From positions 1-58,585 of the IMG/VR virus record IMGVR_UViG_3300013280_000002: a DNA stretch of 58,585 nt, one strand, 5' to 3'. The notes beneath the pieces are model-generated. The model was not told where the DNA came from. It was given only the letters and a program-made list of their open reading frames with translations, and ran no database searches. A program made the position numbers and the translations under genes. Positions 26,821-36,375 of the stretch are shown piece by piece. Each line of letters begins with the position of its first letter. Position 1 is the first letter of the stretch. The stretch is from a virus.

Positions 26821-27336
26821 ATGATCAACTTCAACGAACTGGGCAAAGTGGAACTCCGTCAGGCCTGCAAGGAAGCTGGCATCAAGAACTACGGCAAGAT
26901 GAACAATGACGGCATGCGTGCCGCACTGGAAGCGCACTCCAAGCCTGTGCAAGAACAGGTGGAAGCTGTGGTCACCAAGGTAGTACAGGAAGAAGCACCT
27001 GTCAGCACCCCGAGCGGTCTGGCAACGATGGTTCAACAGATGGGTGCCAACCAGAAGAAGGAAGAGGAGCGCAGCGCTCCCGCCGCTGCCAAGCGCACCA
27101 GCAGCGGCCTGAAGATTGAAAAGGCCCGCGAAGAACGCAACGGCATCAAGAAGCCTTCCGTGGGCGGTCAGTGCCGCGCTGTGTGGGATGCGCTGGATGA
27201 CATGGTGGCAGCGGGCACTCAGCCTACCGCCAAGCACGTGAAGGCGCTGGCTGAAGAGCGCGGCTGGAATGCGAACAATGCGTCCATCGAGTTCTACCAG
27301 TGGCGCAAGTTCAACGGCATCCGCGGCCGTCAGTAA
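26821..27336 (+). CDS. paralog A: SAP/HeH (Rho_N-like) N-terminus plus shared C-terminal W-rich domain
   Basis: LGKVELRQACKEAGIKNYGKMNNDGMRAAL at the N-terminus. C-terminus ...CRAVWDALD...GWNANNASIEFYQWRKFNGIRGR. Confidence 0.75.
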   Translation: MINFNELGKVELRQACKEAGIKNYGKMNNDGMRAALEAHSKPVQEQVEAVVTKVVQEEAPVSTPSGLATMVQQMGANQKKEEERSAPAAAKRTSSGLKIEKAREERNGIKKPSVGGQCRAVWDALDDMVAAGTQPTAKHVKALAEERGWNANNASIEFYQWRKFNGIRGRQ

Positions 27337-27393: not shown

Positions 27394-28065
27394 ATGTACG
27401 TTAGTCTTGACATGCAGAACATGAGGATCGTTCATAAGCATTCGTCCGTGAATGCTGTGTGCGGTCTGGTCCATATTGAACTCCCCGACGTCGCAGTGAA
27501 TGTCTGTCCGATCGACATGGCAGTCAAGCACAAGACCGACATGGAGATCAAGATGCTTTTCCGATCGTGCTTTCCGGGGCAAACTGACCACATGCCCGTC
27601 GCGGAGATGAAGTCCAAGATCCTCCAGTTTGCGGAAGAGTTCCCTGTTACGGATCTGGACGAGCTTGAAGTCAGGCGCCAGGCAGACAGTATTCGGGACG
27701 GCGACAAGAAGGCCTACAAGTATGTGAAGGGTTCGTTCCGCGCTTCCCGTCCTGCGGAGTTGTTTGCCGACGCTACGGGCGACGCTGTGCGTGCCGGTGC
27801 TACCGTACCGGCCAGCAGTGCTGCGCGGCCTGCGCGGCCCGCTGCCGCCCCGCGCGCTGCAACTGGTGCTCCAAGGGCCAGCGGTGTGCGCGAGAAGATC
27901 TGGGCAGTCGCTGACCGCATGTGGGAGGAAGCTGGAAAGCCAACTGAAAAGAGCACAGTCCTCGCCTTGCGCAAGGATATCATGAGCGCACTGGAGCAGG
28001 ATGGGGTGAAGCGCACCAGCAGCTCCAATGAGCTCGGCAACTGGCAGAAAGCGCGCATCGCGTAA
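27394..28065 (+). CDS. paralog B: unknown N-terminal domain, A/P/R linker, divergent copy of the shared C-terminal domain
   Basis: C-terminus REKIWAVADRMW...GVKRTSSSNELGNWQKARIA aligns with A and C. GAGG RBS. The start is uncertain. Confidence 0.6.
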   Translation: MYVSLDMQNMRIVHKHSSVNAVCGLVHIELPDVAVNVCPIDMAVKHKTDMEIKMLFRSCFPGQTDHMPVAEMKSKILQFAEEFPVTDLDELEVRRQADSIRDGDKKAYKYVKGSFRASRPAELFADATGDAVRAGATVPASSAARPARPAAAPRAATGAPRASGVREKIWAVADRMWEEAGKPTEKSTVLALRKDIMSALEQDGVKRTSSSNELGNWQKARIA

Positions 28066-28112: not shown

Positions 28113-28161
28113 GCAATCCCGTCCATCAAAGGACTGTATTCACTTTCACTGGAGAAAGACC

Positions 28162-28665
28162 ATGACCGAGAAGACCGCCGAACAGATCGCTGCCGAGCAG
28201 GCCGAAGCCCAGCGCAAGGCTGACGAAAAAGCTGCCGAGAAGGCCCGCAAGGAAGCCGAGAAGGCTGAAGCGAAGGCCAAGCGCGAAGCCGAAGCTGCCG
28301 AGAAGAAGGCCCAGGAAAAGGCCGACCGCGAAGCCAAGAAGGCTGCCGAGAAGGCGGCGAAGGAACAAGCCAAGCTCGATGCCAAGGCTGCCCGCGAAGC
28401 CACCCGCATGCCGGAGCAGAACGGTATCCGCCGTCCGAAGCCCGACACCCTCTGCGGCAAGGCCTGGGGCATCTTCGACAGCGTGTCGCAGAAGAACGGC
28501 GCTCCCGCGTCCATCGGCGAGTCCATGGAACTGGCCAAGGCCGACGGTCTGAACGAAGCCAACGTCCGTGCCGAATACGCCCGCTGGCGCAAGTTCCACG
28601 GCATCACCGGCCGTATCGAGTCCCCGAAGGCCGAAACGACCTCCTCCGGCGCCGAGCAGGCCTAA
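28162..28665 (+). CDS. paralog C: K/A/E-rich helical N-terminus plus shared C-terminal W-rich domain
   Basis: GGAGAAAG RBS. AEKARKEAEKAEAKAKREAEAAEKKAQEK... at the N-terminus. C-terminus CGKAWGIFD...GLNEANVRAEYARWRKFHGITGR. Confidence 0.75.
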   Translation: MTEKTAEQIAAEQAEAQRKADEKAAEKARKEAEKAEAKAKREAEAAEKKAQEKADREAKKAAEKAAKEQAKLDAKAAREATRMPEQNGIRRPKPDTLCGKAWGIFDSVSQKNGAPASIGESMELAKADGLNEANVRAEYARWRKFHGITGRIESPKAETTSSGAEQA

Positions 28666-28710
28666 CCTGCTACAATAAAGCACCCTGGGCATCCGCCCAG
28701 CGGGAAACCT

Positions 28711-28736
28711 GCAAAGGGGCAGAGATGCCCCTTTGC
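28711..28736 (+). other. 10-bp perfect hairpin GCAAAGGGGC-agagat-GCCCCTTTGC (no T-tract)
   Basis: Lies between paralog C and queE. Confidence 0.5.
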
Positions 28737-28755
28737 TATCTACCCCGGAGGTTCC

Positions 28756-29463
28756 ATGAACTTACAACCAATCGAGAAGCGCACCAAGAGCGGTGACGTC
28801 CTGCTGTCCCTACACAGCATCTTTCACACCATCCAGGGCGAAGGCCCTTTCTGCGGAACTCCTTCCGTATTCGTCCGACTCGCAGGGTGCAATCTCCAAT
28901 GCCCCGCATGCGACACCGACTACACCCAAGGCCGGCGCGTTGCAAGCACCCAAGAGATCCTCGCCAAGGTGCAGGAATACCAGTCGAGCGGCCTTGTGGT
29001 CATCACCGGCGGCGAACCATTTCGCCAGGACATCACACGACTCCTCAACGTGCTGACCGATGCGGGCTTCTATGTCCAGATCGAGACTAACGGTACGCTC
29101 GAACCTGTCGAGTACCCTTACAGCACCATGCCCGACATTCGAACGGGCGTCTATGTGGTGTGCAGCCCCAAAGCTGGTAAGGTGCATCCCCGCACCAACG
29201 ACGTTGCCTGCTGCTTCAAATACGTGATCGCACATGACAGCATCCATGAGGATGACGGTCTGCCCTTGCGCGCTCTGGAGCATCAGGCAAGCCCGTATGT
29301 CGCCCGTCCGCCCAAGAACTGGGCGCGTCCGATTTACCTGCAACCGATGGACGCTAAAGACGACAGCATCAACCGACTGAACTTGCAAGCGGCCATCCGC
29401 TCCTGCATGAAGTTCGGTTACATCCTTCAACTACAGATCCACAAGATCATCGAAATGGAGTGA
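28756..29463 (+). CDS. queE: 7-carboxy-7-deazaguanine synthase QueE (radical SAM)
   Basis: FVRLAGCNLQCPACDTDY (C-X3-C-X2-C) and ITGGEP. GGAGG RBS. Confidence 0.88.
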   Translation: MNLQPIEKRTKSGDVLLSLHSIFHTIQGEGPFCGTPSVFVRLAGCNLQCPACDTDYTQGRRVASTQEILAKVQEYQSSGLVVITGGEPFRQDITRLLNVLTDAGFYVQIETNGTLEPVEYPYSTMPDIRTGVYVVCSPKAGKVHPRTNDVACCFKYVIAHDSIHEDDGLPLRALEHQASPYVARPPKNWARPIYLQPMDAKDDSINRLNLQAAIRSCMKFGYILQLQIHKIIEME

Positions 29464-29466
29464 GCT

Positions 29467-30867
29467 ATGTGCGCAATCATTGGCGCCTTGGTGTGGGGCT
29501 TGACCACACCTGAAGCACGGTCACAGGCCAACAGCCTGCTGAACCATATCATTCAGCAGAGCCACGAGCGCGGTCGCGACGGTCGGGGCTTCCTGACGAA
29601 CTACGGTGACGACATCGTTATCGAGAAGAGCACCGACCGCAAGGACGCGAAGGACTGGACGTCTGTCGAGTTCTTCAAGAGCGACGTGTCGTCCGCTACC
29701 TTTATCAGCAACCTGCGAGCCGAGCCGACAACCGAGTACGTCGCTGACAAGTCCCAGGACGATCAGCAACCTTACAGCGCGGGGCACTGGTCTATCGTGC
29801 ATAACGGCACCATCGCCAACGATAAGGCGCTGCGCACGGGCAAGGTGCCCACCCGCATCGACAGCGCGGCGATCGCGGAAGTCCTGGACGCCACCCTCTG
29901 TGACGGTTCCAATGCGTACCGAACCGCTCTGCACTTCATCGAGAGTGTGAAGAAACTCAAGGGCAGCTATGCGATCCTGGCGACCCATAGCGAGCAGAAG
30001 AATCATCTGCTGGTGGCAGCAAACTACCGCCCCATCTGGTTCGTCGTAACCGAAGTCGGCGTCTTCTTTGCAAGCGCGCGCCACTACTTTCCCGACAACA
30101 TGACTCCGCGCATGGTCGATCCATATTCGGTCATGAGTTTCTACTTCAGCGATCATCTTGAGATCCGCGGCGAGTCCCTGTACGACGTGGGCGCTCGTTC
30201 CAAGGCGCTCGTCGTGTGTAGCGGCGGACTGGACAGTGTGGTCGCTGCCACTTACGTCAAGAAGGTGCTGGGCTACGATGTGACGCTGGTGCATTTCAGG
30301 TATGGCAGCCGCGCGGAGGGCCCGGAGGTCTCTGCTATCTGGAAGGTGGCAGGAGCGCTCGGTGTGGGGCTGTGGATCCGCACAATCGACGCCTACGAGC
30401 CGGGCGATTCACCTTTGCTTCAAGCTGACAGCAAGATCGCTGGCGGTGAAGAGGGTGCCGAGTTCGCTCACGAGTGGGTTCCTGCTCGGAATCTGCTCAT
30501 GCTCGCACACGCCACCGCAATGGCAGAAGCGAAAGGGTTTGACACGCTGGTCCTCGGTAACAACCTCGAGGAAGCTGGTGCGTATCCTGACAACGAACCC
30601 GAGTTCATTGCCAAGTTCAACGACCTGCTGCCTTTCGCAGTTGGCGATGGAAAGCGCATGCGAGTCATGATGCCTGTGGGCAACCTGATGAAGCATGAGA
30701 TCGTGGCGCTGGGGCACCGCATTGGCGCACCGCTCGACAAGACCTGGAGCTGCTACCGTGCGGGCGAGCAGCATTGCGGGACGTGCGGTCCGTGCTACAT
30801 GCGACGCACCGCGTTTGACATCAACGGCCTCGAAGAGGTCATTTCTTACAGTAAAGACAAGGAGTAA
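29467..30867 (+). CDS. queC: Gat-QueC fusion: class II glutamine amidotransferase + 7-cyano-7-deazaguanine synthase
   Basis: N-terminal MCAIIG (Ntn Cys). QueC PP-loop CSGGLDS at aa ~251 and zinc site CYRAGEQHCGTCGPCYMR. Confidence 0.88.
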   Translation: MCAIIGALVWGLTTPEARSQANSLLNHIIQQSHERGRDGRGFLTNYGDDIVIEKSTDRKDAKDWTSVEFFKSDVSSATFISNLRAEPTTEYVADKSQDDQQPYSAGHWSIVHNGTIANDKALRTGKVPTRIDSAAIAEVLDATLCDGSNAYRTALHFIESVKKLKGSYAILATHSEQKNHLLVAANYRPIWFVVTEVGVFFASARHYFPDNMTPRMVDPYSVMSFYFSDHLEIRGESLYDVGARSKALVVCSGGLDSVVAATYVKKVLGYDVTLVHFRYGSRAEGPEVSAIWKVAGALGVGLWIRTIDAYEPGDSPLLQADSKIAGGEEGAEFAHEWVPARNLLMLAHATAMAEAKGFDTLVLGNNLEEAGAYPDNEPEFIAKFNDLLPFAVGDGKRMRVMMPVGNLMKHEIVALGHRIGAPLDKTWSCYRAGEQHCGTCGPCYMRRTAFDINGLEEVISYSKDKE

Positions 30868-30871
30868 CCAC

Positions 30872-31294
30872 ATGCCCTGGCAAGCCAAACGATATCACGA
30901 CATCAGCTGCGGACACCGCGTCTTCCAGCACGAGTCGAAGTGCGCGCATCTGCACGGCCACAACTATCGAGTCCATTTCACCTGCGAAGCGGAGGAACTG
31001 GACAACATCGGCCGCGTGATCGATTTCAGCGACATGAAGTCCCGCCTGTGCATGTGGCTGGAAGATCATTGGGATCACAAGACGCTCATCTGGGAGAACG
31101 ACCCGTGGGCCAAGGTGCTGCCCGAAATTGACCCGACGATCGTGATCGTCCCCTTCAACCCTACAGCCGAGAACATTGCTCAACATCTCGTTGAAGTGAT
31201 AGGCCCGCAGCAGCTCGCAGGCACCGGCATCAAGCTCGTACATTGTGACGTCGAAGAGACGCGCAAGTGCTCCGCATCTTTTCACGCTCACTGA
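30872..31294 (+). CDS. queD: 6-carboxytetrahydropterin synthase QueD
   Basis: CGHRVFQHESKCAHLHGHNY and DHKTL. AAGGAG RBS. Confidence 0.88.
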   Translation: MPWQAKRYHDISCGHRVFQHESKCAHLHGHNYRVHFTCEAEELDNIGRVIDFSDMKSRLCMWLEDHWDHKTLIWENDPWAKVLPEIDPTIVIVPFNPTAENIAQHLVEVIGPQQLAGTGIKLVHCDVEETRKCSASFHAH

Positions 31295-31303
31295 GGACAC
31301 ATC

Positions 31304-32197
31304 ATGCAACTGACCCTGAATCATAACGACGTGCAGGCGCTCGCGCAGCGGGCAGCACGGGCCATTTTGGCCTTCGGTGCTACCATTGGCCGCACCCTGC
31401 TGGCTTACCCCGTACCGCGCGGCGGTGTGCCCGTTGCGTACCTGCTGCAAGGGCTCGCAGGGTTCAGCATCACCGACGACCCCGAGAAAGCCGATTTCTT
31501 CATCGATGACCTGATCGACAGCGGCAGCACGATGGAGCACTGGTGCGACCAGTTCCCAGGCAAGCCCTTCTTCGTGCTCATCGACAAGAAGACGGACGAA
31601 GAGTTCAAGGGTCGCTGGATCGTGTTCCCGTGGGAAGGTGACGCCGAGTCCGGCATCGAAGACAACATCCGCCGTCTGCTCCAGTATGTCGGGGATGATC
31701 CTGCCCGAGAAGGTCTGCTCGAGACCCCGCATCGCGTCGCCAAGGCCTGGCGTCACTGGTGCGGCGGTTACGGCAAGGACCCGAAGGGCATCCTGAAGGT
31801 GTTCGAAGACGGTGCGGAGAAACATGACCAGATGGTGACGGTGCGTGACATCCCCATCTACTCCCATTGCGAGCATCACCTCGCGCCGATCTTCGGCACG
31901 GTCACGATCAGCTACATCCCGAACGGTCGTATCGTGGGCCTGAGCAAGCTGTCCCGCCTGGCGGACATGTATGCTCGCCGGTTGCAAGTGCAGGAACGGC
32001 TCACAGACCAGATCGCGGACGCACTGTTCGAGCACCTGGAAGCGAAGGGCGTCGGTGTGGTCATCAAGGCGCGACACATGTGCATGGAGTCCCGTGGCAT
32101 CTGCCAGCAGGGGCACCACACGGTGACGACTGCTCTTCGTGGCGCGATGAAGGATGAACCGGACACCCGTGCCGAGTTTCTTCGGCTTGCCCAGTAA
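31304..32197 (+). CDS. folE: Gpt-like phosphoribosyltransferase domain fused to GTP cyclohydrolase I (FolE)
   Basis: aa 1-~110 carry VPRGGVPVAYLL, FFIDDLIDSGST and WIVFPWEG (type I PRT/XGPRT-like). aa ~115-297 carry the FolE motifs ETPHRVAKAW, SHCEHHLAPI and ARHMCMESRG. Confidence 0.85.
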   Translation: MQLTLNHNDVQALAQRAARAILAFGATIGRTLLAYPVPRGGVPVAYLLQGLAGFSITDDPEKADFFIDDLIDSGSTMEHWCDQFPGKPFFVLIDKKTDEEFKGRWIVFPWEGDAESGIEDNIRRLLQYVGDDPAREGLLETPHRVAKAWRHWCGGYGKDPKGILKVFEDGAEKHDQMVTVRDIPIYSHCEHHLAPIFGTVTISYIPNGRIVGLSKLSRLADMYARRLQVQERLTDQIADALFEHLEAKGVGVVIKARHMCMESRGICQQGHHTVTTALRGAMKDEPDTRAEFLRLAQ

Positions 32198-32215
32198 CAG
32201 CCAGTTCGCTATAAT
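32187..32215 (+). promoter_or_regulatory. possible internal promoter TTGCCC-17-TATAAT at the folE 3' end
   Basis: Perfect -10 hexamer 13 nt after the folE stop. Confidence 0.35.
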
Positions 32216-32241
32216 GTAGGGACGTCTTCGGATGTCCCTAC
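32216..32241 (+). other. UUCG-tetraloop hairpin followed by ATTTT, upstream of dpdA
   Basis: GTAGGGACGTC-TTCG-GATGTCCCTAC: 11 bp including one G-U pair. Confidence 0.5.
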
Positions 32242-32255
32242 ATTTTGGAGGTCTC

Positions 32256-33194
32256 ATGAACATCTTTATGGCGGCAGTCTATACGAACGGATACATGGAA
32301 GGTCAGGCGCGCCATGCCAAGCTGACAGAGCACGAGCAGAATCTTGTCCAAGCGGTTCCGCATGTATTGGAGTCGTTTCACTATGTATCAAAACAGCGTT
32401 ATGTCGATGATATGCGGCGTGACGGTGCCCAAGTGTTCCTGGACTCGGGAGCGTTCTCTGCCTACACGCTGGGCGTCGAAATTAGCGTCGCGGAGTATTG
32501 CGACTATATCACCCGCAACAGAGACATCATTCGCGTCGAAGATGGTGTCGTGATGGCGTCTGTGCTGGACGGCATCGGTGACCCTTTGCAAACATGGCGC
32601 AATCAGCTCGAGATGGAGCAGCGCGGCGCCAAGCCCCTTCCCTGCTTCCACGCTGGAGAGGACGAGCGTTATCTGGAATGGTATGTTGCGAACTACGAAT
32701 ACATCACGCTAGGCGGCATGGTGGGCTCTAGCACTCAGCAGCTCTGCATCTGGCTGGACAGGATATGGGATCGCTACCTCACCGACGGTAGCGGCAATCC
32801 GAAGATCAAGGTGCATGGCTTCGGTATCACAGCCGTTCCAATCATGGAGCGCTATCCGTGGTATTCCTGTGACTCGTCCTCCTGGATTCAGTCCGCTGCA
32901 TTCGGCAGCATTATCGCCCCAGGCTACAGCCGGAGCACGATGGCACTTCCGATGAGCGTGTCGGAGAAGTCCCCCAGCAGGCACGACGCTGGGCAGCACG
33001 TGACCACACTGACACCCATCGAGCAAGACTACGTTCTGCAGATGCTCGAGAAGCACGGTTTCACGCTTGAGCGCCTTTCCACCGTGTATGAGTCACGCGC
33101 CGCCTACAATCTGTGGGCGTTCGGTGTGATCAACACAATGATCAACGCTGCACACTCGAACACGTTCCGGGCGCGCATCCAGGAGCTCTTCTAA
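32256..33194 (+). CDS. dpdA: DpdA-type DNA guanine transglycosylase (TGT superfamily)
   Basis: VFLDSGAFS, ITLGGMVG and YSCDSSSW motifs. GGAGG RBS for ATG 32256. Confidence 0.8.
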   Translation: MNIFMAAVYTNGYMEGQARHAKLTEHEQNLVQAVPHVLESFHYVSKQRYVDDMRRDGAQVFLDSGAFSAYTLGVEISVAEYCDYITRNRDIIRVEDGVVMASVLDGIGDPLQTWRNQLEMEQRGAKPLPCFHAGEDERYLEWYVANYEYITLGGMVGSSTQQLCIWLDRIWDRYLTDGSGNPKIKVHGFGITAVPIMERYPWYSCDSSSWIQSAAFGSIIAPGYSRSTMALPMSVSEKSPSRHDAGQHVTTLTPIEQDYVLQMLEKHGFTLERLSTVYESRAAYNLWAFGVINTMINAAHSNTFRARIQELF

Positions 33195-34147
33195 TGCTTA
33201 AAGAACTCAAGTTCGTGCAGGGCGCAGTGGCTAAGAAAGACCTCCTGCCCGCCATGACACACTTCGCTATCGAAGGCGGGCATGTGCGCTCGTATAACGG
33301 GACGCTGGCGCTGTCCAGCCCCATCCCCTTTGACATTGACTGCAAGCCCAAGGCGGGCCCGCTGGTGCAGGCGATCGCGAACTGCAACGACACAGTGACG
33401 CTGAGCATGACCCCAGCGGGCAAGCTGCGCATTCAGAGCGGTAAGTTCCGGGCGTTCGTGGATTGCATCGATGGTGAAACGCCTCACGTTATGCCTGAAG
33501 GCGCTCACGTGGATCTTGACGGTGAGCAGCTTCTGACGGCGTGCAAGACGCTTGCACCGTTCGTCGGCAACGATGCGTCACGCCCTTGGACGAACGGCAT
33601 CTTGCTCCGGGGTCAGTCCGCGTTCGCCACGAATAACGTGTGCCTGGTGGAATACTGGATCGGGTCGCAGACACCCTTCACCGCCAACATCCCTATGGCG
33701 GCAATCAAGGAGATGATCCGTATTAACGAAGCGCCCACGCACGCACAACGCACTGACAACAGCATCACATTCCATTACACCGACGGGCGTTGGATCCGGA
33801 GCCAGCTATATAGCACCGACTGGCCCGACCTTTCGAAAGTGCTTGACAGGCAGAGCCACCCGAGTGATATGGACTCCCGCCTGTTCGAAGGGCTGGAAGT
33901 GATTAAACCTTTCGCCGACAAGCTGGGGCGCGCGTTCTTCCACGGTGAAGCAGTCAAGACCCATATCGACGAAGGAGAAGGGGCATCGTTCGACATGGTG
34001 GGCTTCCCGTTCGAAGGTGTGTATCAGATCGAGATGCTCAAACTGCTGAAGGACGTAGCACAGAAAATCGACTTCAGCACGTATCCGAATCCCTGCTTGT
34101 TCTACGGTGACAGGCTCAGGGGTGCAATCGTAGGCATGCGCCTGTAA
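33194..34147 (+). CDS. DNA polymerase sliding clamp (beta/DnaN-like)
   Basis: 317 aa. N-terminus MLKELKFVQGAV...LLPAMTHFAIE. C-terminal ...AIVGMRL resembles the DnaN ...MPMRL end. Confidence 0.6.
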   Translation: MLKELKFVQGAVAKKDLLPAMTHFAIEGGHVRSYNGTLALSSPIPFDIDCKPKAGPLVQAIANCNDTVTLSMTPAGKLRIQSGKFRAFVDCIDGETPHVMPEGAHVDLDGEQLLTACKTLAPFVGNDASRPWTNGILLRGQSAFATNNVCLVEYWIGSQTPFTANIPMAAIKEMIRINEAPTHAQRTDNSITFHYTDGRWIRSQLYSTDWPDLSKVLDRQSHPSDMDSRLFEGLEVIKPFADKLGRAFFHGEAVKTHIDEGEGASFDMVGFPFEGVYQIEMLKLLKDVAQKIDFSTYPNPCLFYGDRLRGAIVGMRL

Positions 34148-34197
34148 CATGTAACCAGCGCCACGGCCCGCTTAATGGCCTTAGATGAGGATAGAAG

Positions 34198-36375
34198 ATG
34201 AGGGCTGACGCTCTAGGACTGTTCTGGGAGGATCGACCTCCACCTCCCAAAGAGAAGGCCGAGAAGGCGAAACGCACACCGCCAGACCCCGTGTGGTTAC
34301 GCCCAGACTACCTGCCCGGGCTAGAAGAAGCTCTGCGCTTCCCCATGCTTGTGATGAACGACGCGGAGGTGCTTCACGCGGCAATGACCGGCGATAGGCT
34401 GCTGTTTGACATCGAGTGTTATGAGAACTATTTCATCGCCTCGTTCCGCTCACTCGCCACAGGCAAAGCAGTGTTCTTCGAGATGTATGATGGGCACCCG
34501 CTGGACGTCGGGAGACTGCGCTGGGTACTGGAGAACACCACGACTGTCGGGTTCAACTCTCTGTCTTACGACTTACCGATCACATTCCTTGCACTTGCGG
34601 GCAAGCCGACCGCATTGCTGAAGCATGCAACGAACCAGATCATTCTGGAAGGTTGGCGCGGTTCCGAAGTGTTGAAGCAGTACAAGGTGAAGGGCGTTAA
34701 GATTGACCACATTGACCTGATCGAGGTCGCGCCGCTTCGCGCCAGCCTGAAGATCTATGGCGGTCGCTTGCACGTTCCACGGATGCAGGACTTGCCCTTC
34801 CACCCTGACACCATACTCAGCCCTGAGCAGATCGCTTGCGTGCGCTGGTACAACATCAACAGTGACCTTTCCGCCACCGCGTTCCTTCACGAGTGCTTGC
34901 GAGATCACTTGGATCTTCGCACTACGCTATCGAATGAAACAGGCATCGACCTTCGCAGCAAGTCCGACGCACAGATTGCAGAGTCTGTTATTGCGGAGGA
35001 GATGACCCGCCGCATGGGCGGGCGCCCTGAAAAACCCGTGATTGAGGTGGGCACCGCTTACCGATACAAGGTGCCCCACTTCATTCGTTACCAGTCGCAG
35101 CTGATGAACTGGGCATTGGGCGTCGTTGCCAATTCAAATTTCCTTGTTGATGAGACTGGTTCCATTGGCATGCCCGAAGAGATTAAGGCGCTCCAGCTTG
35201 ATATCAATGGCAGCGTGTATCGAATGGGCATTGGTGGTCTGCACAGTAGCGAAAGCACGGCAGCGCACCACAGCGACGAGAATTACATCCTGATCGACAA
35301 GGACGTGACGTCGTACTATCCGTTCATCATCTTAAACCTTGGCTTGTACCCGCATCACCTCGGCCCGACGTTCCTTCACGTGTATAAGAACATCGTGGAT
35401 CGACGTATTGCAGCCAAGGAACGGGGTGACAAGGTAACAGCCGACTCACTCAAGATTACGATCAACGGGTCGTTCGGTAAGCTGGGCAGCAAGTATTCGA
35501 TCCTCTACTCCCCTGACCTGCTGATCCAGGTGACAGTGACCGGCCAGCTAAGCCTACTGATGCTGATCGAGCGCCTGGAGCTGGCTGGAATCCATGTGGT
35601 CAGCGCGAACACTGACGGCATCGTAATCAAGTGCCCGCGCAAGGGGCAGCACGTCATGGACCAGATCATCGCTCAGTGGGAGCAGGACACAGGGTTCCAG
35701 ACCGAGGGCACCATCTACAAGACGCTCTATTCGCGTGACGTGAATAACTACATCGCAGTCAAGGAAGACGGCTCTACGAAGTGCAAGGGTGCCTATGCTA
35801 ACCCGTGGGCCAGCAAGAAGAACATGGCGGAGCGCTTGCACAAGAACCCGACGAATACGATCTGCGTCGAAGCTGTGGAGGCGCTGCTGACGAAGAACGT
35901 ACCGATCATGACCACAGTGCGCGGGTGCAAGGACATCACGAAGTTCGTGTCTGTGCGCAGCGTGAAGGGTGGCGCGGTCAAGGTGTGGGATCGCATTCCG
36001 CCTCCCGCGCACAGTTCGCAGGAGGAGCTTCTGAGGATGGCGGGGTTCGTACCGTTCTCGAAAGATAGCTGGGTCAGGGAAGGTGACACAATCGGGCGCG
36101 CTGCAATGAACACCGAACGCGCGTACAAGGCGGCCTGGGACGAGTTGTCCAAGCCTGGCCTGACCGAGTACCTGGGCAAGTCGATCCGCTGGTACTACGC
36201 CGTCGGGGTACAGGGTGAGATCGTCTATGCAACGAACGGGAACAAGGTGCCCCGCTCGGAAGGCGCTAAGCCCATGATGGATTTGCCGGACGAGTTCCCT
36301 GCCGACGTCGATTTCGAGTGGTATGAACAGGAGTGCGAGAAGATCCTGAAGGCCATTGGGTATCAGGTTGATTAG
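34198..36375 (+). CDS. DNA polymerase (B-family-like) with 3'-5' exonuclease
   Basis: Exonuclease motifs FDIECYENY and NSLSYDLP. Polymerase motifs KITINGSFGKLG and SANTDGIVI. Confidence 0.85.
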   Translation: MRADALGLFWEDRPPPPKEKAEKAKRTPPDPVWLRPDYLPGLEEALRFPMLVMNDAEVLHAAMTGDRLLFDIECYENYFIASFRSLATGKAVFFEMYDGHPLDVGRLRWVLENTTTVGFNSLSYDLPITFLALAGKPTALLKHATNQIILEGWRGSEVLKQYKVKGVKIDHIDLIEVAPLRASLKIYGGRLHVPRMQDLPFHPDTILSPEQIACVRWYNINSDLSATAFLHECLRDHLDLRTTLSNETGIDLRSKSDAQIAESVIAEEMTRRMGGRPEKPVIEVGTAYRYKVPHFIRYQSQLMNWALGVVANSNFLVDETGSIGMPEEIKALQLDINGSVYRMGIGGLHSSESTAAHHSDENYILIDKDVTSYYPFIILNLGLYPHHLGPTFLHVYKNIVDRRIAAKERGDKVTADSLKITINGSFGKLGSKYSILYSPDLLIQVTVTGQLSLLMLIERLELAGIHVVSANTDGIVIKCPRKGQHVMDQIIAQWEQDTGFQTEGTIYKTLYSRDVNNYIAVKEDGSTKCKGAYANPWASKKNMAERLHKNPTNTICVEAVEALLTKNVPIMTTVRGCKDITKFVSVRSVKGGAVKVWDRIPPPAHSSQEELLRMAGFVPFSKDSWVREGDTIGRAAMNTERAYKAAWDELSKPGLTEYLGKSIRWYYAVGVQGEIVYATNGNKVPRSEGAKPMMDLPDEFPADVDFEWYEQECEKILKAIGYQVD

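What the first reader, a model, noticed from the sequence alone, without database searches (positions are those of the whole stretch)
28756..33194. 7-deazaguanine (archaeosine-type) DNA hypermodification island placed directly in front of the clamp and polymerase
Seen in the sequence: five contiguous rightward genes.
- QueE, with the radical-SAM motif CNLQCPAC.
- A class II glutamine amidotransferase (N-terminal MCAIIG) fused to QueC (SGGLDS PP-loop and CGTCGPC zinc site).
- QueD (CGHRVF...HLHGHNY).
- FolE (CEHH, HMCM).
- A TGT-superfamily DpdA (FLDSGAFS, CDSSSW).
The sliding clamp and DNA polymerase genes follow immediately.

Established knowledge: FolE, QueD, QueE and QueC make preQ0 from GTP. 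Phage DpdA exchanges guanine in DNA for 7-deazaguanine bases. As I recall, phages carrying a Gat-QueC fusion (for example E. coli phage 9g) contain 2'-deoxyarchaeosine (dG+).

Inference: this phage replaces part of its G with dG+ or dPreQ0 as an anti-restriction measure, possibly coupled to replication. The identity of the base, the extent of replacement and the target sequence context cannot be read from the sequence.
Basis: partly seen in the sequence, partly recalled or inferred. Interest (0 to 1): 0.75.

Follow-up and report, generated by a model that had tools for sequence, protein, structure and literature searches.

The report
Known phage deoxyarchaeosine DNA-modification gene cassette
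This is the already-described gene set that NP1-like Pseudomonas phages use to swap part of the guanine in their DNA for the modified base deoxyarchaeosine, which protects the DNA from restriction enzymes. The one fresh point is that its first enzyme carries an extra, apparently undescribed purine-salvage-like domain.

Summary
Window 28756-33194 holds five co-oriented, tightly packed genes, QueE, Gat-QueC, QueD, FolE and DpdA, followed at once by the sliding clamp and the DNA polymerase.

The window is a Nipunavirus-like Pseudomonas phage (subfamily Queuovirinae), about 91-93% identical in DNA to NP1, PaMx25, PAJD-1 and Quinobequin P09.
- The cassette is orthologous to that of E. coli phage 9g, where Gat-QueC plus DpdA were shown to put dG+ into DNA. 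DpdA is 69% identical and Gat-QueC 52%.
- Virion DNA of Quinobequin P09 was shown by HPLC/MS to hold a 308-Da fifth nucleoside matching dG+. Its cassette proteins are 91-99% identical to those here.
- Published work treats DpdA exchange as post-replicative, so coupling to replication is neither needed nor shown.

FolE (297 aa) has an N-terminal ~117-aa domain homologous to xanthine-guanine phosphoribosyltransferase (PDB profile E 1.6e-7), but without the flexible catalytic loop.
- In 79 of 80 IMG/VR loci this small domain lies beside or fused to FolE, in 7-deazaguanine clusters.
- Stand-alone relatives occur in CP220, phiST and immuto.
- I found no paper that describes it. It probably recycles or senses guanine.

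The parts
28756..29463 (+). QueE: radical-SAM 7-carboxy-7-deazaguanine (CDG) synthase, 235 aa, CX3CX2C cluster motif at aa 45-52
   Evidence: Pfam Radical_SAM 1.3e-8. NCBIfam QueE models score 3e-25, below their cut-offs. phrog_2076 'QueE-like' 1e-62. 51% identical to 9g QueE and 94.5% to Quinobequin P09 QueE.
29467..30867 (+). Gat-QueC fusion, 466 aa. The N-terminal class-II (Ntn) glutamine amidotransferase starts with Cys2. The QueC domain (aa 246-452) carries the SGGLDS PP-loop and the CGTCGPC zinc site.
   Evidence: Pfam QueC 7e-50, GATase_6 2e-7 and GATase_7 6e-7. phrog_10428 2.7e-252. 51.8% identical over the full length to 9g Gat-QueC. Cys2, the PP-loop and the Cys cluster are invariant in alignment A6.
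30872..31294 (+). QueD: 6-carboxytetrahydropterin synthase, 140 aa, with the CxxxHGH signature (CAHLHGH)
   Evidence: Pfam PTPS 2.6e-25. TIGR03367 QueD 2.5e-21. phrog_2389 1e-54. The start was chosen at Met60 of the listed ORF, 4 nt after the Gat-QueC stop and preceded by AAGGAG.
31304..31654 (+). N-terminal domain of the FolE protein (aa 1-117): a reduced XGPRT (Gpt)-like type I phosphoribosyltransferase domain. It keeps the RGG loop (aa 39-41), the PRPP motif FFIDDLIDSGST (aa 65-76), Lys95 and the WIVFPWE tail (aa 105-111). It lacks the flexible loop II segment.
   Evidence: - Profile A1 against PDB: XGPRT entries 6kqc, 5xtk and 1a97 at E 1.6e-7 to 5.5e-7, and the ten best hits are all purine PRTases.
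- hhalign against E. coli Gpt: probability 94.7%, E 5.9e-8, with Gpt residues ~58-78 deleted.
- phrog_8995 'phosphoribosyl transferase' 2e-4.
- 27 of 82 family members hit Pfam PF00156.
- AlphaFold2 on a 124-sequence alignment gives pLDDT 88-97 over residues 1-100 (85 for 101-110) and alternating strands and helices.
31655..32197 (+). GTP cyclohydrolase I (FolE) catalytic domain, aa 118-297, with zinc ligands in CEHH (aa 189-192) and HMCM (aa 258-261)
   Evidence: Pfam GTP_cyclohydroI 1.8e-70 over aa 118-296. NCBIfam FolE 4.5e-71, above cut-off. Foldseek against PDB: FolE structures at E ~1e-22 with target TM-score 0.82-0.86.
32213..32244 (+). A 14-bp hairpin with a UUCG loop in the 58-nt folE-dpdA spacer. 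A promoter-like TTGCCC-17-TATAAT (32187-32215) lies just before it, and the dpdA ribosome-binding site follows.
   Evidence: RNA fold of 32198-32255: -26.3 kcal/mol, z = -5.8, and 0 of 200 shuffles fold as well. The promoter-like site matches 10 of 12 positions, but the regional count of such sites is not above chance. In NP1 a 147-aa homing endonuclease gene sits in this same spacer. Function not established.
32256..33194 (+). DpdA, subfamily DpdA1: DNA guanine transglycosylase, 312 aa. Asp63 lies in FLDSGAFS, Asp206 in CDSSSW and His187 in KVHGFG.
   Evidence: - 69.4% identical to 9g DpdA and 63.8% to iggy DpdA; 96.5% to Quinobequin P09 DpdA.
- phrog_887 2.7e-98.
- Weak NCBIfam DpdA hit, 1.8e-3.
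- D63, D206 and H187 are invariant in 8 divergent phage DpdAs.
- H187 corresponds to His196 of 9g, the DpdA signature histidine cited in PMC6884629.
33194..34147 (+). Sliding clamp (DNA polymerase processivity factor). Context only, not part of the modification pathway.
   Evidence: phrog_947 4.3e-87. 43% identical to the 9g replicative clamp.
34198..36375 (+). DNA polymerase, distantly family-B-like. Context only.
   Evidence: phrog_1252 4.3e-219. Weak NCBIfam PolB/Pol II hits around aa 394-549. 44% identical to the 9g polymerase and 53% to the iggy polymerase.

Best explanation
The block is the 9g-type deoxyarchaeosine (dG+) DNA-modification cassette of a Nipunavirus-like (Queuovirinae) Pseudomonas siphophage.

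**Pathway (from established knowledge of these families)**
1. FolE opens GTP to dihydroneopterin triphosphate.
2. QueD makes 6-carboxytetrahydropterin.
3. The radical-SAM enzyme QueE makes 7-carboxy-7-deazaguanine.
4. The QueC half of Gat-QueC uses ATP to carry this to the nitrile level (preQ0).
5. The glutamine amidotransferase half supplies ammonia, giving the formamidine base G+.
6. DpdA1 removes guanine from duplex phage DNA and inserts the 7-deazaguanine base, acting at a subset of G positions after replication.

**Outcome**
Virion DNA ends up with part of its dG replaced by dG+, which blocks many restriction enzymes.

**What is shown and what is inferred**
- Shown here: gene content, gene order, intact catalytic motifs, and orthology to the characterised systems.
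- Shown by others in near-identical or orthologous phages: dG+ in virion DNA, and the requirement for Gat-QueC plus DpdA.
- Inferred: that this particular genome is modified, to what extent, and at which motif.

**The extra FolE domain**
The FolE polypeptide also carries an N-terminal XGPRT-like domain. My reading, which is inference only, is that it binds guanine and PRPP. It would then either return the guanine expelled by DpdA to the GMP/GTP pool that feeds FolE, or tune FolE to purine supply.
For: **Gene assignments**
- Pfam, NCBIfam and PHROG searches support all five assignments.
- Every catalytic motif is present.

**Relatives**
- The 4.4-kb block is 87-93% identical to 19 phage records (NP1, PaMx25, PAJD-1, Quinobequin P09, JG012, JG054 and others) and 79% to one more, PIP.
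- A 24-kb stretch around it is 90-93% identical over 86-88% of its length in 11 of the 12 listed records, and 85% in JG054.

**Orthology and synteny with 9g**
- The order helicase, two small genes, QueE, Gat-QueC, QueD, FolE, DpdA, clamp, polymerase matches 9g, apart from an extra 9g gene (gp07) between QueE and Gat-QueC.
- Identities to 9g: DpdA 69%, Gat-QueC 52%, QueE 51%, FolE core 61%.

**Experiments in the literature**
- In 9g, dpdA plus gat-queC give dG+ in up to 18% of plasmid G. dpdA alone gives dPreQ0. 9g dpdA does not complement tgt, and the phenotype still needs queD (PMC6884629).
- Quinobequin P09 virion DNA has a fifth nucleoside of 308 Da matching dG+, with a G:C ratio below 1 (PMC6884629 supplement). 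Its proteins are 91.4-99.3% identical to those here.
- NP1, PaMx25, JG012 and JG054 are in that paper's table of phages encoding these genes. NP1 and Quinobequin P09 are named as having the GAT domain on QueC in PMC7472734.
- 9g DpdA is classed as DpdA1. DpdA1 phages replace 0.1-30% of G, and exchange is considered post-replicative (PMC10516641).

**The FolE N-domain**

Against: - There is no chemical measurement for this genome. The fraction of G replaced and the target motif cannot be read from the sequence.
- The link between phage DpdA and the TGT superfamily could not be reproduced with the tools used:
  - no Pfam TGT hit, even at E <= 1;
  - nothing in PDB with profiles A3 or A7;
  - hhalign against E. 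coli Tgt gave probability 3%.
  So the DpdA assignment rests on orthology to validated proteins, not on an independent family test.
- This DpdA has a 6-aa insertion (RSTMAL, aa 226-231) relative to 9g and iggy. Its effect on specificity is unknown.
- Whether amidation by Gat-QueC happens before or after insertion into DNA is unresolved in the literature.
- For the N-domain:
  - The catalytic flexible loop and a strand before the WI motif are missing.
  - GMP is two kinase steps away from the FolE substrate GTP.
  - Some bacterial chromosomes carry the same fusion with no Que or DpdA gene within 10 kb.
Confidence: 0.88

Rival explanations
1. The cassette stops at dPreQ0, as in CAjan, iggy and Rosebush. 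The amidotransferase half of Gat-QueC would be inactive or irrelevant in this phage, so the DNA would carry dPreQ0 rather than dG+.
For: DpdA enzymes tested so far insert preQ0 (PMC10516641). 9g DpdA alone gives dPreQ0 in E. coli. iggy DpdA, 64% identical to this one, yields only dPreQ0.
Against: - The Gat domain is intact: the Cys2 nucleophile and the conserved blocks are shared with 9g, and the protein is 52% identical to 9g Gat-QueC over its full length.
- Quinobequin P09, whose Gat-QueC is 91.4% identical, shows the 308-Da nucleoside assigned to dG+.
- iggy and CAjan have plain QueC, not Gat-QueC.
Confidence: 0.06
2. The genes modify tRNA with queuosine or archaeosine to tune translation, rather than modifying DNA. 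This is what the GenBank label 'queuine tRNA-ribosyltransferase' implies.
For: Most related records annotate the DpdA gene as a tRNA ribosyltransferase. The pathway enzymes are shared with tRNA modification.
Against: 9g dpdA does not complement an E. coli tgt mutant, yet it does modify DNA. Modified nucleosides were found in virion DNA of 9g and Quinobequin P09. The DpdA signature histidine is present.
Confidence: 0.02
3. The base enters DNA through the nucleotide pool. The PRTase-like domain would attach ribose-5-phosphate to preQ0 or G+, the product would be reduced and phosphorylated, and the adjacent polymerase would use it. That would amount to true coupling to replication.
For: - A PRTase-like domain sits in the cluster.
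- Toyocamycin and tubercidin gene clusters include PF00156 PRTases among the tailoring enzymes that convert the preQ0 or CDG scaffold into the nucleoside (bioRxiv 10.64898/2026.04.15.718813). That these PRTases act directly on the 7-deazapurine base is my recollection.
- The polymerase and clamp genes are adjacent.
Against: - An intact DpdA1 is present, and in 9g it is required together with Gat-QueC for dG+ insertion.
- The field now finds a DpdA in every 7-deazaguanine phage and treats insertion as post-replicative.
- The domain keeps the Asp equivalent to Gpt Asp92. From memory, that residue contacts purine N7, an atom that 7-deazaguanines lack.
- The same fusion occurs in bacterial chromosomes without Que genes nearby.
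Confidence: 0.04
4. This rival concerns the extra domain only. The XGPRT-like N-domain of FolE would be a non-catalytic sensor of purine, PRPP or nucleotide that regulates GTP cyclohydrolase I, rather than a working guanine salvage enzyme.
For: - The flexible loop II, which in type I PRTases closes the active site, is deleted, and so is a strand before the WI motif. Stand-alone phage relatives keep both.
- PRTase and FolE are not consecutive enzymes.
- The fusion also exists alone in Dehalococcoidia and CPR chromosomes.
Against: - All ligand-contact positions mapped from Gpt are kept and nearly invariant across a family as divergent as 27-59% identity. These are Arg37, Asp88/89, Asp92, Lys115, Trp134-Ile135 and Asp140, corresponding to R39, D68/D69, D72, K95, W105-I106 and E111. 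This fits catalysis as well as binding.
- Full-length stand-alone versions occupy equivalent places in other phage clusters.
Confidence: 0.35

Closest known systems
Nipunavirus phages NP1, PaMx25, PAJD-1, JG012 and Quinobequin P09 (Queuovirinae)
   Same: - The same five genes in the same order, with the same 297-aa two-domain FolE.
- 90-93% DNA identity over the block.
- Proteins 91-99% identical to Quinobequin P09, whose virion DNA contains dG+.
   Different: - The window is not identical to any record. At about 91-93% identity it would probably count as a separate species.
- It lacks the 147-aa homing endonuclease gene that NP1, PaMx25, JG012, Sew_P3 and PAB2 carry between folE and dpdA.
E. 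coli phage 9g dG+ system (Nonagvirus), the experimentally dissected prototype
   Same: - QueE, Gat-QueC, QueD, FolE and DpdA1 in the same order, followed by clamp and polymerase.
- DpdA 69% and Gat-QueC 52% identical.
   Different: - 9g FolE is 204 aa and has no PRTase-like domain.
- 9g has an extra 253-aa gene between QueE and Gat-QueC.
- This DpdA has a 6-aa insertion.
dPreQ0 systems of Pseudomonas phage iggy and E. coli phage CAjan
   Same: The same cluster order next to the polymerase. DpdA1 is 64% identical to the iggy enzyme. Both have an anti-restriction role.
   Different: They have plain (or C-terminally extended) QueC, not Gat-QueC, and their product is dPreQ0. Their target motifs are known (GA; GA and GGC), while no motif is known here. 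FolE has a single domain.
E. coli xanthine-guanine phosphoribosyltransferase (Gpt; PDB 1A97, 1NUL) and the small stand-alone phage PRTases (Cellulophaga phiST CGPG_00045, Campylobacter CP220, Flavobacterium immuto)
   Same: - Compared with the FolE N-domain: the RGG loop, the DD..D.G.T PRPP motif, the Lys, and the W-I...PW(D/E) tail are all shared.
- hhalign gives probability 94.7% to Gpt and 97.9% to the phiST protein.
   Different: About 35 residues shorter. It lacks the loop II segment and a strand before the WI motif. It is fused to FolE. Activity is untested.
Bacterial Dpd restriction-modification islands (dpdA-K)
   Same: They use a DpdA transglycosylase to put preQ0-derived bases into DNA (PMC10164549; listing and abstract only).
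   Different: bDpdA works with DpdB and DpdC, gives dPreQ0 and dADG in under 0.1% of G, and belongs to a self/non-self restriction system. This protein matches the bDpdA model only at E 1.8e-3, and no DpdB, DpdC or restriction genes are present here.

Membership tests
Phage dG+ (9g-type, Queuovirinae) 7-deazaguanine DNA modification cassette | Complete route from GTP to CDG: FolE, QueD and QueE with intact active-site motifs | tested here: met
   Pfam, NCBIfam and PHROG hits. Motifs CEHH and HMCM, CxxxHGH and CX3CX2C were located.
Phage dG+ (9g-type, Queuovirinae) 7-deazaguanine DNA modification cassette | QueC fused to an N-terminal class-II glutamine amidotransferase (Gat-QueC) with the Cys2 nucleophile | tested here: met
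   GATase_6/7 plus QueC domains in one 466-aa ORF. 51.8% identical over the full length to 9g Gat-QueC. Cys2, the PP-loop and the zinc cysteines are invariant.
Phage dG+ (9g-type, Queuovirinae) 7-deazaguanine DNA modification cassette | Gene order queE-queC-queD-folE-dpdA adjacent to the clamp and polymerase genes | tested here: met
   The same layout is seen in 9g, iggy, VpKK5 and NP1, and is described as conserved in PMC10484667.
Phage dG+ (9g-type, Queuovirinae) 7-deazaguanine DNA modification cassette | dG+ actually present in virion DNA | not testable with these tools
   Shown only for relatives: 9g, and Quinobequin P09 with its 308-Da nucleoside (PMC6884629).
DpdA1 subfamily of DNA guanine transglycosylases | Close homology to an experimentally validated DpdA1 | tested here: met
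   69.4% identical to 9g DpdA over 310 aa and 63.8% to iggy DpdA over 312 aa. 9g DpdA is classed as DpdA1 (PMC10516641).
DpdA1 subfamily of DNA guanine transglycosylases | Two conserved aspartates (in DSG and in CDSSSW) and the DpdA signature histidine (His196 in 9g numbering) | tested here: met
   D63, D206 and H187 are invariant across 8 phage DpdAs that are down to 27% identical. The histidine is cited in PMC6884629. Equating the two Asp with TGT Asp102 and Asp280 is from my memory of Z. mobilis TGT.
TGT superfamily (Pfam PF01702) | Significant profile or structural match to tRNA-guanine transglycosylase | tested here: inconclusive
   - No Pfam TGT hit at E <= 1 for this protein, nor for the 9g, iggy, VpKK5, Dp-1, Bipper, ZHS or phiFN37 DpdAs.
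- NCBIfam DpdA gives only 1.8e-3, far below its cut-off, but the same model region is hit by four divergent phage DpdAs.
- PDB profile searches found nothing.
- The test is insensitive, because validated DpdAs fail it too.
Type I purine phosphoribosyltransferase, XGPRT/Gpt type (FolE N-domain) | Significant sequence-profile match to solved XGPRT structures | tested here: met
   The hmmsearch profile against PDB gives XGPRT entries at E 1.6e-7 to 5.5e-7, and the ten best hits are all purine PRTases. hhalign gives 94.7%. 27 of 82 family members hit PF00156.
Type I purine phosphoribosyltransferase, XGPRT/Gpt type (FolE N-domain) | PRPP-binding motif (hydrophobic x4, two acidic residues, then a small-residue loop) and the RGG pyrophosphate loop | tested here: met
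   FFIDDLIDSGST (aa 65-76) and PRGG (aa 38-41). G41, D68, D69 and T76 are invariant, and R39, G40, D72, S73 and G74 are >=90% conserved in 82 sequences.
Type I purine phosphoribosyltransferase, XGPRT/Gpt type (FolE N-domain) | Flexible catalytic loop II between strands 3 and 4 | tested here: not met
   The hhalign gap covers Gpt residues ~58-78. Alignment A8 shows the fused forms lacking 25-30 residues that Gpt and the stand-alone phage PRTases keep. I therefore call it 'XGPRT-like' and do not file it as a Gpt orthologue.
Type I purine phosphoribosyltransferase, XGPRT/Gpt type (FolE N-domain) | Phosphoribosyl transfer to guanine or xanthine | not testable with these tools
   This needs an enzyme assay.
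Genus Nipunavirus (Queuovirinae) | High genome-wide nucleotide identity and synteny with NP1 and PaMx25 | tested here: met
   90-93% identity over 86-88% of a 24-kb query to DoCa3, NP1, PaMx25, JG012 and others. The taxonomy line of NP1 and Quinobequin P09 confirms the genus.

The most novel reading that the evidence does not exclude
The ~117-aa XGPRT-like domain fused to the N-terminus of FolE (31304-31654) may be a conserved sixth module of phage 7-deazaguanine DNA-modification clusters. As far as I could search, it has not been described.

**Distribution**
- It is fused to FolE in Nipunavirus-, VpKK5-, MMDA13- and Baskent-like phages.
- It is a separate gene inside the cluster in other lineages.
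- It is a full-length stand-alone protein in CP220, phiST and immuto, the three phages named in the literature as replacing all of their G.

**Proposed role**
It would close a guanine cycle. DpdA expels one guanine per exchange, and the PRTase returns it to GMP, then GTP, which FolE turns into the next 7-deazaguanine. This would also remove free guanine, which competes with preQ0 at DpdA.
Probability: 0.4. Interest if true: 0.55.

Novelty: already known. Interest (0 to 1): 0.33.

Why it matters
**The main finding**
It matters little as a discovery, because the cassette, its product and its anti-restriction role are published for 9g and for a near-identical Pseudomonas phage. It does matter in practice:
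- NP1-like phages are candidates for therapy against P. aeruginosa.
- dG+ DNA resists many restriction enzymes.
- It may also disturb cloning and some sequencing chemistries.

**The PRTase-like domain**
This is the part worth a specialist's attention.
- If it recycles or senses guanine, it would explain how these phages afford to convert thousands of guanines per genome. This genome has 33,927 G, so about 8,500 exchanges per copy if 25% are replaced as in 9g.
- It would also add a missing accessory function to pathway reconstitutions. Some of those have failed in E. coli for unexplained reasons (PMC10516641).

Tried and rejected
**Approaches that gave nothing**
- Single-sequence phmmer of the FolE N-domain and of DpdA against PDB found nothing meaningful.
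- AlphaFold2 of the N-domain alone, with a 6-sequence alignment, failed (pLDDT 42). I replaced it with a full-length model built on 124 sequences.
- Foldseek of the full-length model against PDB was swamped by FolE: all 50 listed hits were FolE, and the model could not be cropped. The BFVD search did bring up phage and giant-virus PRTases below the FolE hits.
I concluded that these tools are too insensitive, not that the protein lies outside the family.

**Regulatory signals**
The promoter and terminator scan of 26.5-37.5 kb gave counts no higher than in shuffled sequence, so I make no operon-structure claim from it.

**Literature**
- Searches for any description of a PRTase in phage 7-deazaguanine clusters found nothing relevant.
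- Crippen et al. 2019 (J Virol), on the Campylobacter phages, is not in the library. The supplements of PMC10516641 are not held. Prior mention there cannot be excluded.
- I considered that DpdL of Cui et al. might be the PRTase. It is not: DpdL is a QueD paralogue.

**Other**
- The long antisense ORFs across the block (for example 30839-32263 on the minus strand, 474 aa) are treated as high-GC artefacts.

Full report
**1. The observation**

| Gene | Coordinates | Length |
|---|---|---|
| QueE | 28756-29463 | 235 aa |
| Gat-QueC | 29467-30867 | 466 aa |
| QueD | 30872-31294 | 140 aa |
| FolE | 31304-32197 | 297 aa |
| DpdA | 32256-33194 | 312 aa |
| Sliding clamp | 33194-34147 | 317 aa |
| DNA polymerase | 34198-36375 | 725 aa |

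- The gaps between consecutive genes are 3, 4, 9, 58, -1 and 50 nt, and each start has a Shine-Dalgarno-like sequence.
- The DpdA start at 32256 is preceded by GGAGG at the right distance.
- All quoted motifs were located.
- Profile searches agree with the assignments:
  - QueC: PF06508, 7e-50, together with GATase_6/7 in the same ORF
  - QueD: PTPS, 2.6e-25
  - FolE: GTP_cyclohydroI, 1.8e-70
  - QueE: Radical_SAM, 1.3e-8
  - NCBIfam: FolE scores above its cut-off; the QueC, QueD and QueE models score below theirs
  - PHROGs: QueE 1e-62, Gat-QueC 2.7e-252, QueD 1e-54, DpdA 2.7e-98, clamp 4e-87, polymerase 4e-219

**2. What the window is**

- The 4.4-kb block is 87-93% identical to 19 GenBank phage records. 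These include NP1, PaMx25, vB_PaeS_PAJD-1, Quinobequin-P09, TIVP-H6, JG012, JG054, and records labelled as Xanthomonas and Variovorax phages.
- A 24-kb stretch around it is 90-93% identical over 86-88% of its length in 11 of the 12 listed records, and 85% in JG054.
- NP1 and Quinobequin P09 are classified as Queuovirinae, Nipunavirus.
- The window is therefore a further NP1-like Pseudomonas siphophage, probably a separate species. Its length of 58,585 bp is close to the 58,566 bp of NP1.

**3. Comparison with the characterised systems**

- The region is syntenic with E. coli phage 9g: helicase, two small genes, QueE, Gat-QueC, QueD, FolE, DpdA, clamp, polymerase. The one difference is an extra 9g gene, gp07, between QueE and Gat-QueC.
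- Protein identities to 9g are DpdA 69.4%, Gat-QueC 51.8% (full length), QueE 51%, QueD 43%, FolE core 61%, clamp 43% and polymerase 44%. Identity to iggy DpdA is 63.8%.
- Identities to Quinobequin P09 are QueE 94.5%, Gat-QueC 91.4%, QueD 99.1%, FolE 99.3% and DpdA 96.5%.
- Cys2, the PP-loop and the zinc cysteines of Gat-QueC are conserved with 9g.

**4. What the literature already establishes**

Hutinet et al. 2019 (PMC6884629) showed the following:
- 9g folE, queD and queE complement the corresponding E. coli mutants.
- 9g dpdA does not complement tgt.
- dpdA alone puts dPreQ0 into plasmid DNA.
- dpdA plus gat-queC give dG+ in up to about 18% of G, and this confers EcoRI resistance.

Their Supplementary Information describes Pseudomonas phage Quinobequin P09:
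- It carries the same cluster as PaMx25 and 9g.
- Its virion DNA contains a fifth nucleoside of 308 Da matching dG+, with a G:C ratio below one.
- NP1, PaMx25, JG012 and JG054 are listed in the paper's table.

Other papers add:
- Olsen et al. [quoted passage not shown]
- Cui et al. 2023 (PMC10516641) class 9g DpdA as DpdA1, report 0.1-30% replacement for DpdA1 phages, and argue that all known 7-deazaguanine DNA modifications are post-replicative.

The suggested coupling to replication has no support beyond a conserved gene neighbourhood.

**5. The DpdA family test**

HMMER-level tools do not connect this protein to TGT:
- There is no Pfam hit, even at E <= 1.
- There is no PDB hit by phmmer, or with profiles of 4 and 8 phage DpdAs.
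Its single aligned stretch falls on the DSGGFQ/DSGAFS motif.
- The only signal is a weak NCBIfam DpdA hit, 1.8e-3.

The validated 9g DpdA behaves in the same way. Four divergent phage DpdAs all hit the same region of the NCBIfam model. The test is therefore insensitive rather than negative. Positive evidence comes from orthology to validated enzymes, and from the invariance of Asp63, Asp206 and His187 across eight DpdAs down to 27% identity. His187 is His196 in 9g numbering, the signature residue cited in PMC6884629.

This DpdA carries a 6-aa insertion (RSTMAL, aa 226-231) relative to 9g and iggy. Its meaning is unknown.

**6.

*Homology to XGPRT*
- The Pfam FolE match covers only aa 118-296.
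- Residues 1-117 contain PVPRGGVPVA, ADFFIDDLIDSGST and WIVFPWE.
- A 7-sequence profile of this domain finds xanthine(-guanine) phosphoribosyltransferase structures in PDB at E 1.6e-7 to 5.5e-7, and the ten best hits are all purine PRTases.
- hhalign against E. coli Gpt gives 94.7% probability over Gpt residues 4-141.
- The mapping is Arg37 to R39, Asp88/89 to D68/D69, Asp92 to D72, Lys115 to K95, Trp134-Ile135 to W105-I106 and Asp140 to E111. The functional roles of these Gpt residues are from my memory of the XGPRT structures.
- Gpt residues ~58-78, the flexible loop region, are absent, and so is a strand before the WI motif.
- A full-length AlphaFold2 model on 124 sequences has mean pLDDT 89. 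The N-domain scores 88-97 over residues 1-100 (85 for 101-110) and shows alternating strands and helices.

*Distribution of the domain*
- An exhaustive profile search found 1,896 cluster representatives at E <= 1e-3. Of 82 that I scanned, 52 carry GTP_cyclohydroI and 27 hit PF00156.
- The 120 best homologues of the whole protein are all fusions of 292-307 aa, many on phage-sized contigs. Two contexts that I inspected showed the same cassette.
- In GenBank phages the fused form occurs in Nipunavirus, in 42-kb Pseudomonas, Stenotrophomonas and Variovorax phages, in the Vibrio VpKK5 group, in Sphingomonas MMDA13 and in Vibrio breoganii phages. It is absent from 9g, CAjan and iggy.

*Full-length stand-alone relatives*
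- Foldseek against BFVD pointed to the phiST 'phosphoribosyl transferase'. It matches the domain profile at 97.9% probability and ends in GWIVFPWE.
- Its tblastn relatives are almost all in phages with 7-deazaguanine DNA:
  - the Cellulophaga phiST group;
  - Flavobacterium immuto;
  - CP220-like Campylobacter phages (I recognise these as Firehammervirus from memory);
  - a Brevundimonas pair, where the gene directly follows folE;
  - a cyanophage, where it lies between queE and queD.
- CP220, phiST and immuto are the three phages that Cui et al. name as replacing all of their G.

*Wider scans*
- In IMG/VR, I examined 80 loci encoding the domain:

| Feature within ±10 kb of the domain | Loci (of 80) |
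|---|---|
| FolE | 79 |
| At least one of QueE, QueD, QueC | 78 |
| A DpdA1-type gene | 70 |
| PRT-FolE fusion | 66 |

- In all 67 fused ORFs the PRT domain is N-terminal. In the rest it is a separate ORF at varying positions inside the cluster.
- In 185,579 species genomes there are only 18 loci, mostly phage-like MAG contigs. However, Dehalococcoidia and CPR chromosomes carry the fusion with no Que or DpdA gene within 10 kb.

*Literature*
I found no paper that mentions this domain. One relevant paper and one set of supplements could not be read.

**7. Likely mechanism of the extra domain (inference only)**

- Each DpdA exchange frees one guanine and costs one GTP.
- This genome has 33,927 G. 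If 25% are replaced, as in 9g, that is about 8,500 exchanges per copy.
- A guanine PRTase would return the released base to GMP, and from there to GTP.
- It would also lower free guanine, which is a competent substrate for TGT-type enzymes (established knowledge of the TGT exchange assay).

Counter-points:
- The loop deletion, the two kinase steps between GMP and GTP, and the stand-alone bacterial fusions all leave room for a purely regulatory, ligand-sensing role.
- PRTases that I recall acting on 7-deazapurine bases occur in toyocamycin and tubercidin clusters, which sets a precedent for a nucleotide-route rival. I rate that rival low, because DpdA is present and the N7-contacting Asp is kept.

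**8. Verdict**

- The finding is real and correctly interpreted, but already known. I score it low for novelty.
- The unannotated XGPRT-like domain on FolE is a modest lead that can be tested directly.

Noticed in passing
window 31304-31654: FolE carries an N-terminal ~117-aa XGPRT-like phosphoribosyltransferase domain that lacks the flexible loop. It is not annotated in any related GenBank record, and in PaMx25 it is partly called as a separate 'hypothetical protein'. Across IMG/VR it is tightly associated with FolE in 7-deazaguanine clusters.
   Followed up: yes
window 32187-32255: The 58-nt folE-dpdA spacer holds a promoter-like TTGCCC-17-TATAAT, followed directly by a 14-bp hairpin with a UUCG loop (32213-32244; -26.3 kcal/mol, z = -5.8) and a short U run, just before the dpdA ribosome-binding site. 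NP1, PaMx25, JG012 and others carry a ~440-bp homing endonuclease gene in this same spacer; the window does not.
   Followed up: partly
window 28666-28755: The spacer upstream of queE also folds into two strong hairpins (an 11-bp stem GCAAAGGGGCA/UGCCCCUUUGC and a 6-bp stem; -41.3 kcal/mol for 90 nt, z = -4.3) ahead of the GGAGG ribosome-binding site.
   Followed up: partly
window 32931-32948: DpdA has a 6-aa insertion (RSTMAL, aa 226-231) relative to 9g and iggy DpdA. It lies between the CDSSSW catalytic motif and the conserved SEKSPSRH block. It might bear on target-motif choice.
   Followed up: no
window 26821-27336 and 28159-28665: Two small genes upstream of queE are paralogues: 34% identical over a 67-aa C-terminal domain (E 1.3e-10), in PHROGs 21588 and 18634 of unknown function. 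The second also has a long Lys/Ala/Glu-rich low-complexity stretch. Both match the C-terminus of 9g gp09. The gene between them (27394-28065) matches 9g gp10, annotated 'similar to ATPases'. In iggy, the gene at the corresponding position just upstream of queE is annotated 'putative transcriptional activator'; I did not compare the sequences.
   Followed up: partly
P0022, P0076 and P0142 (metagenomic homologues of the FolE fusion): Some PRT-FolE fusions are 349-583 aa long because an intein/Hint domain interrupts the FolE domain. HNH endonuclease hits were also seen in two family members.
   Followed up: no
L102, L107, L108 (Dehalococcoidia chromosomes); L110, L112 (Peribacteria / Peregrinibacteria): The PRT-FolE fusion also occurs in a few bacterial chromosomes with no QueC, QueD, QueE or DpdA1 gene within 10 kb. 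The domain's role is therefore tied to FolE itself, not strictly to DNA modification.
   Followed up: partly
L075 (IMG/VR contig): One viral contig carries two copies of the PRT-like ORF and two QueE-like ORFs within the same 10-kb neighbourhood.
   Followed up: no
window 33194-36375: Neither the clamp nor the polymerase hits any Pfam family. The polymerase gives only weak NCBIfam family-B hits around aa 394-549, so the replication proteins of this phage group are highly divergent.
   Followed up: no
window 1-58585: The window contains exactly equal numbers of A and T on the given strand (12,329 each), with C slightly more numerous than G (17,222 against 16,705). Probably a coincidence.
   Followed up: no
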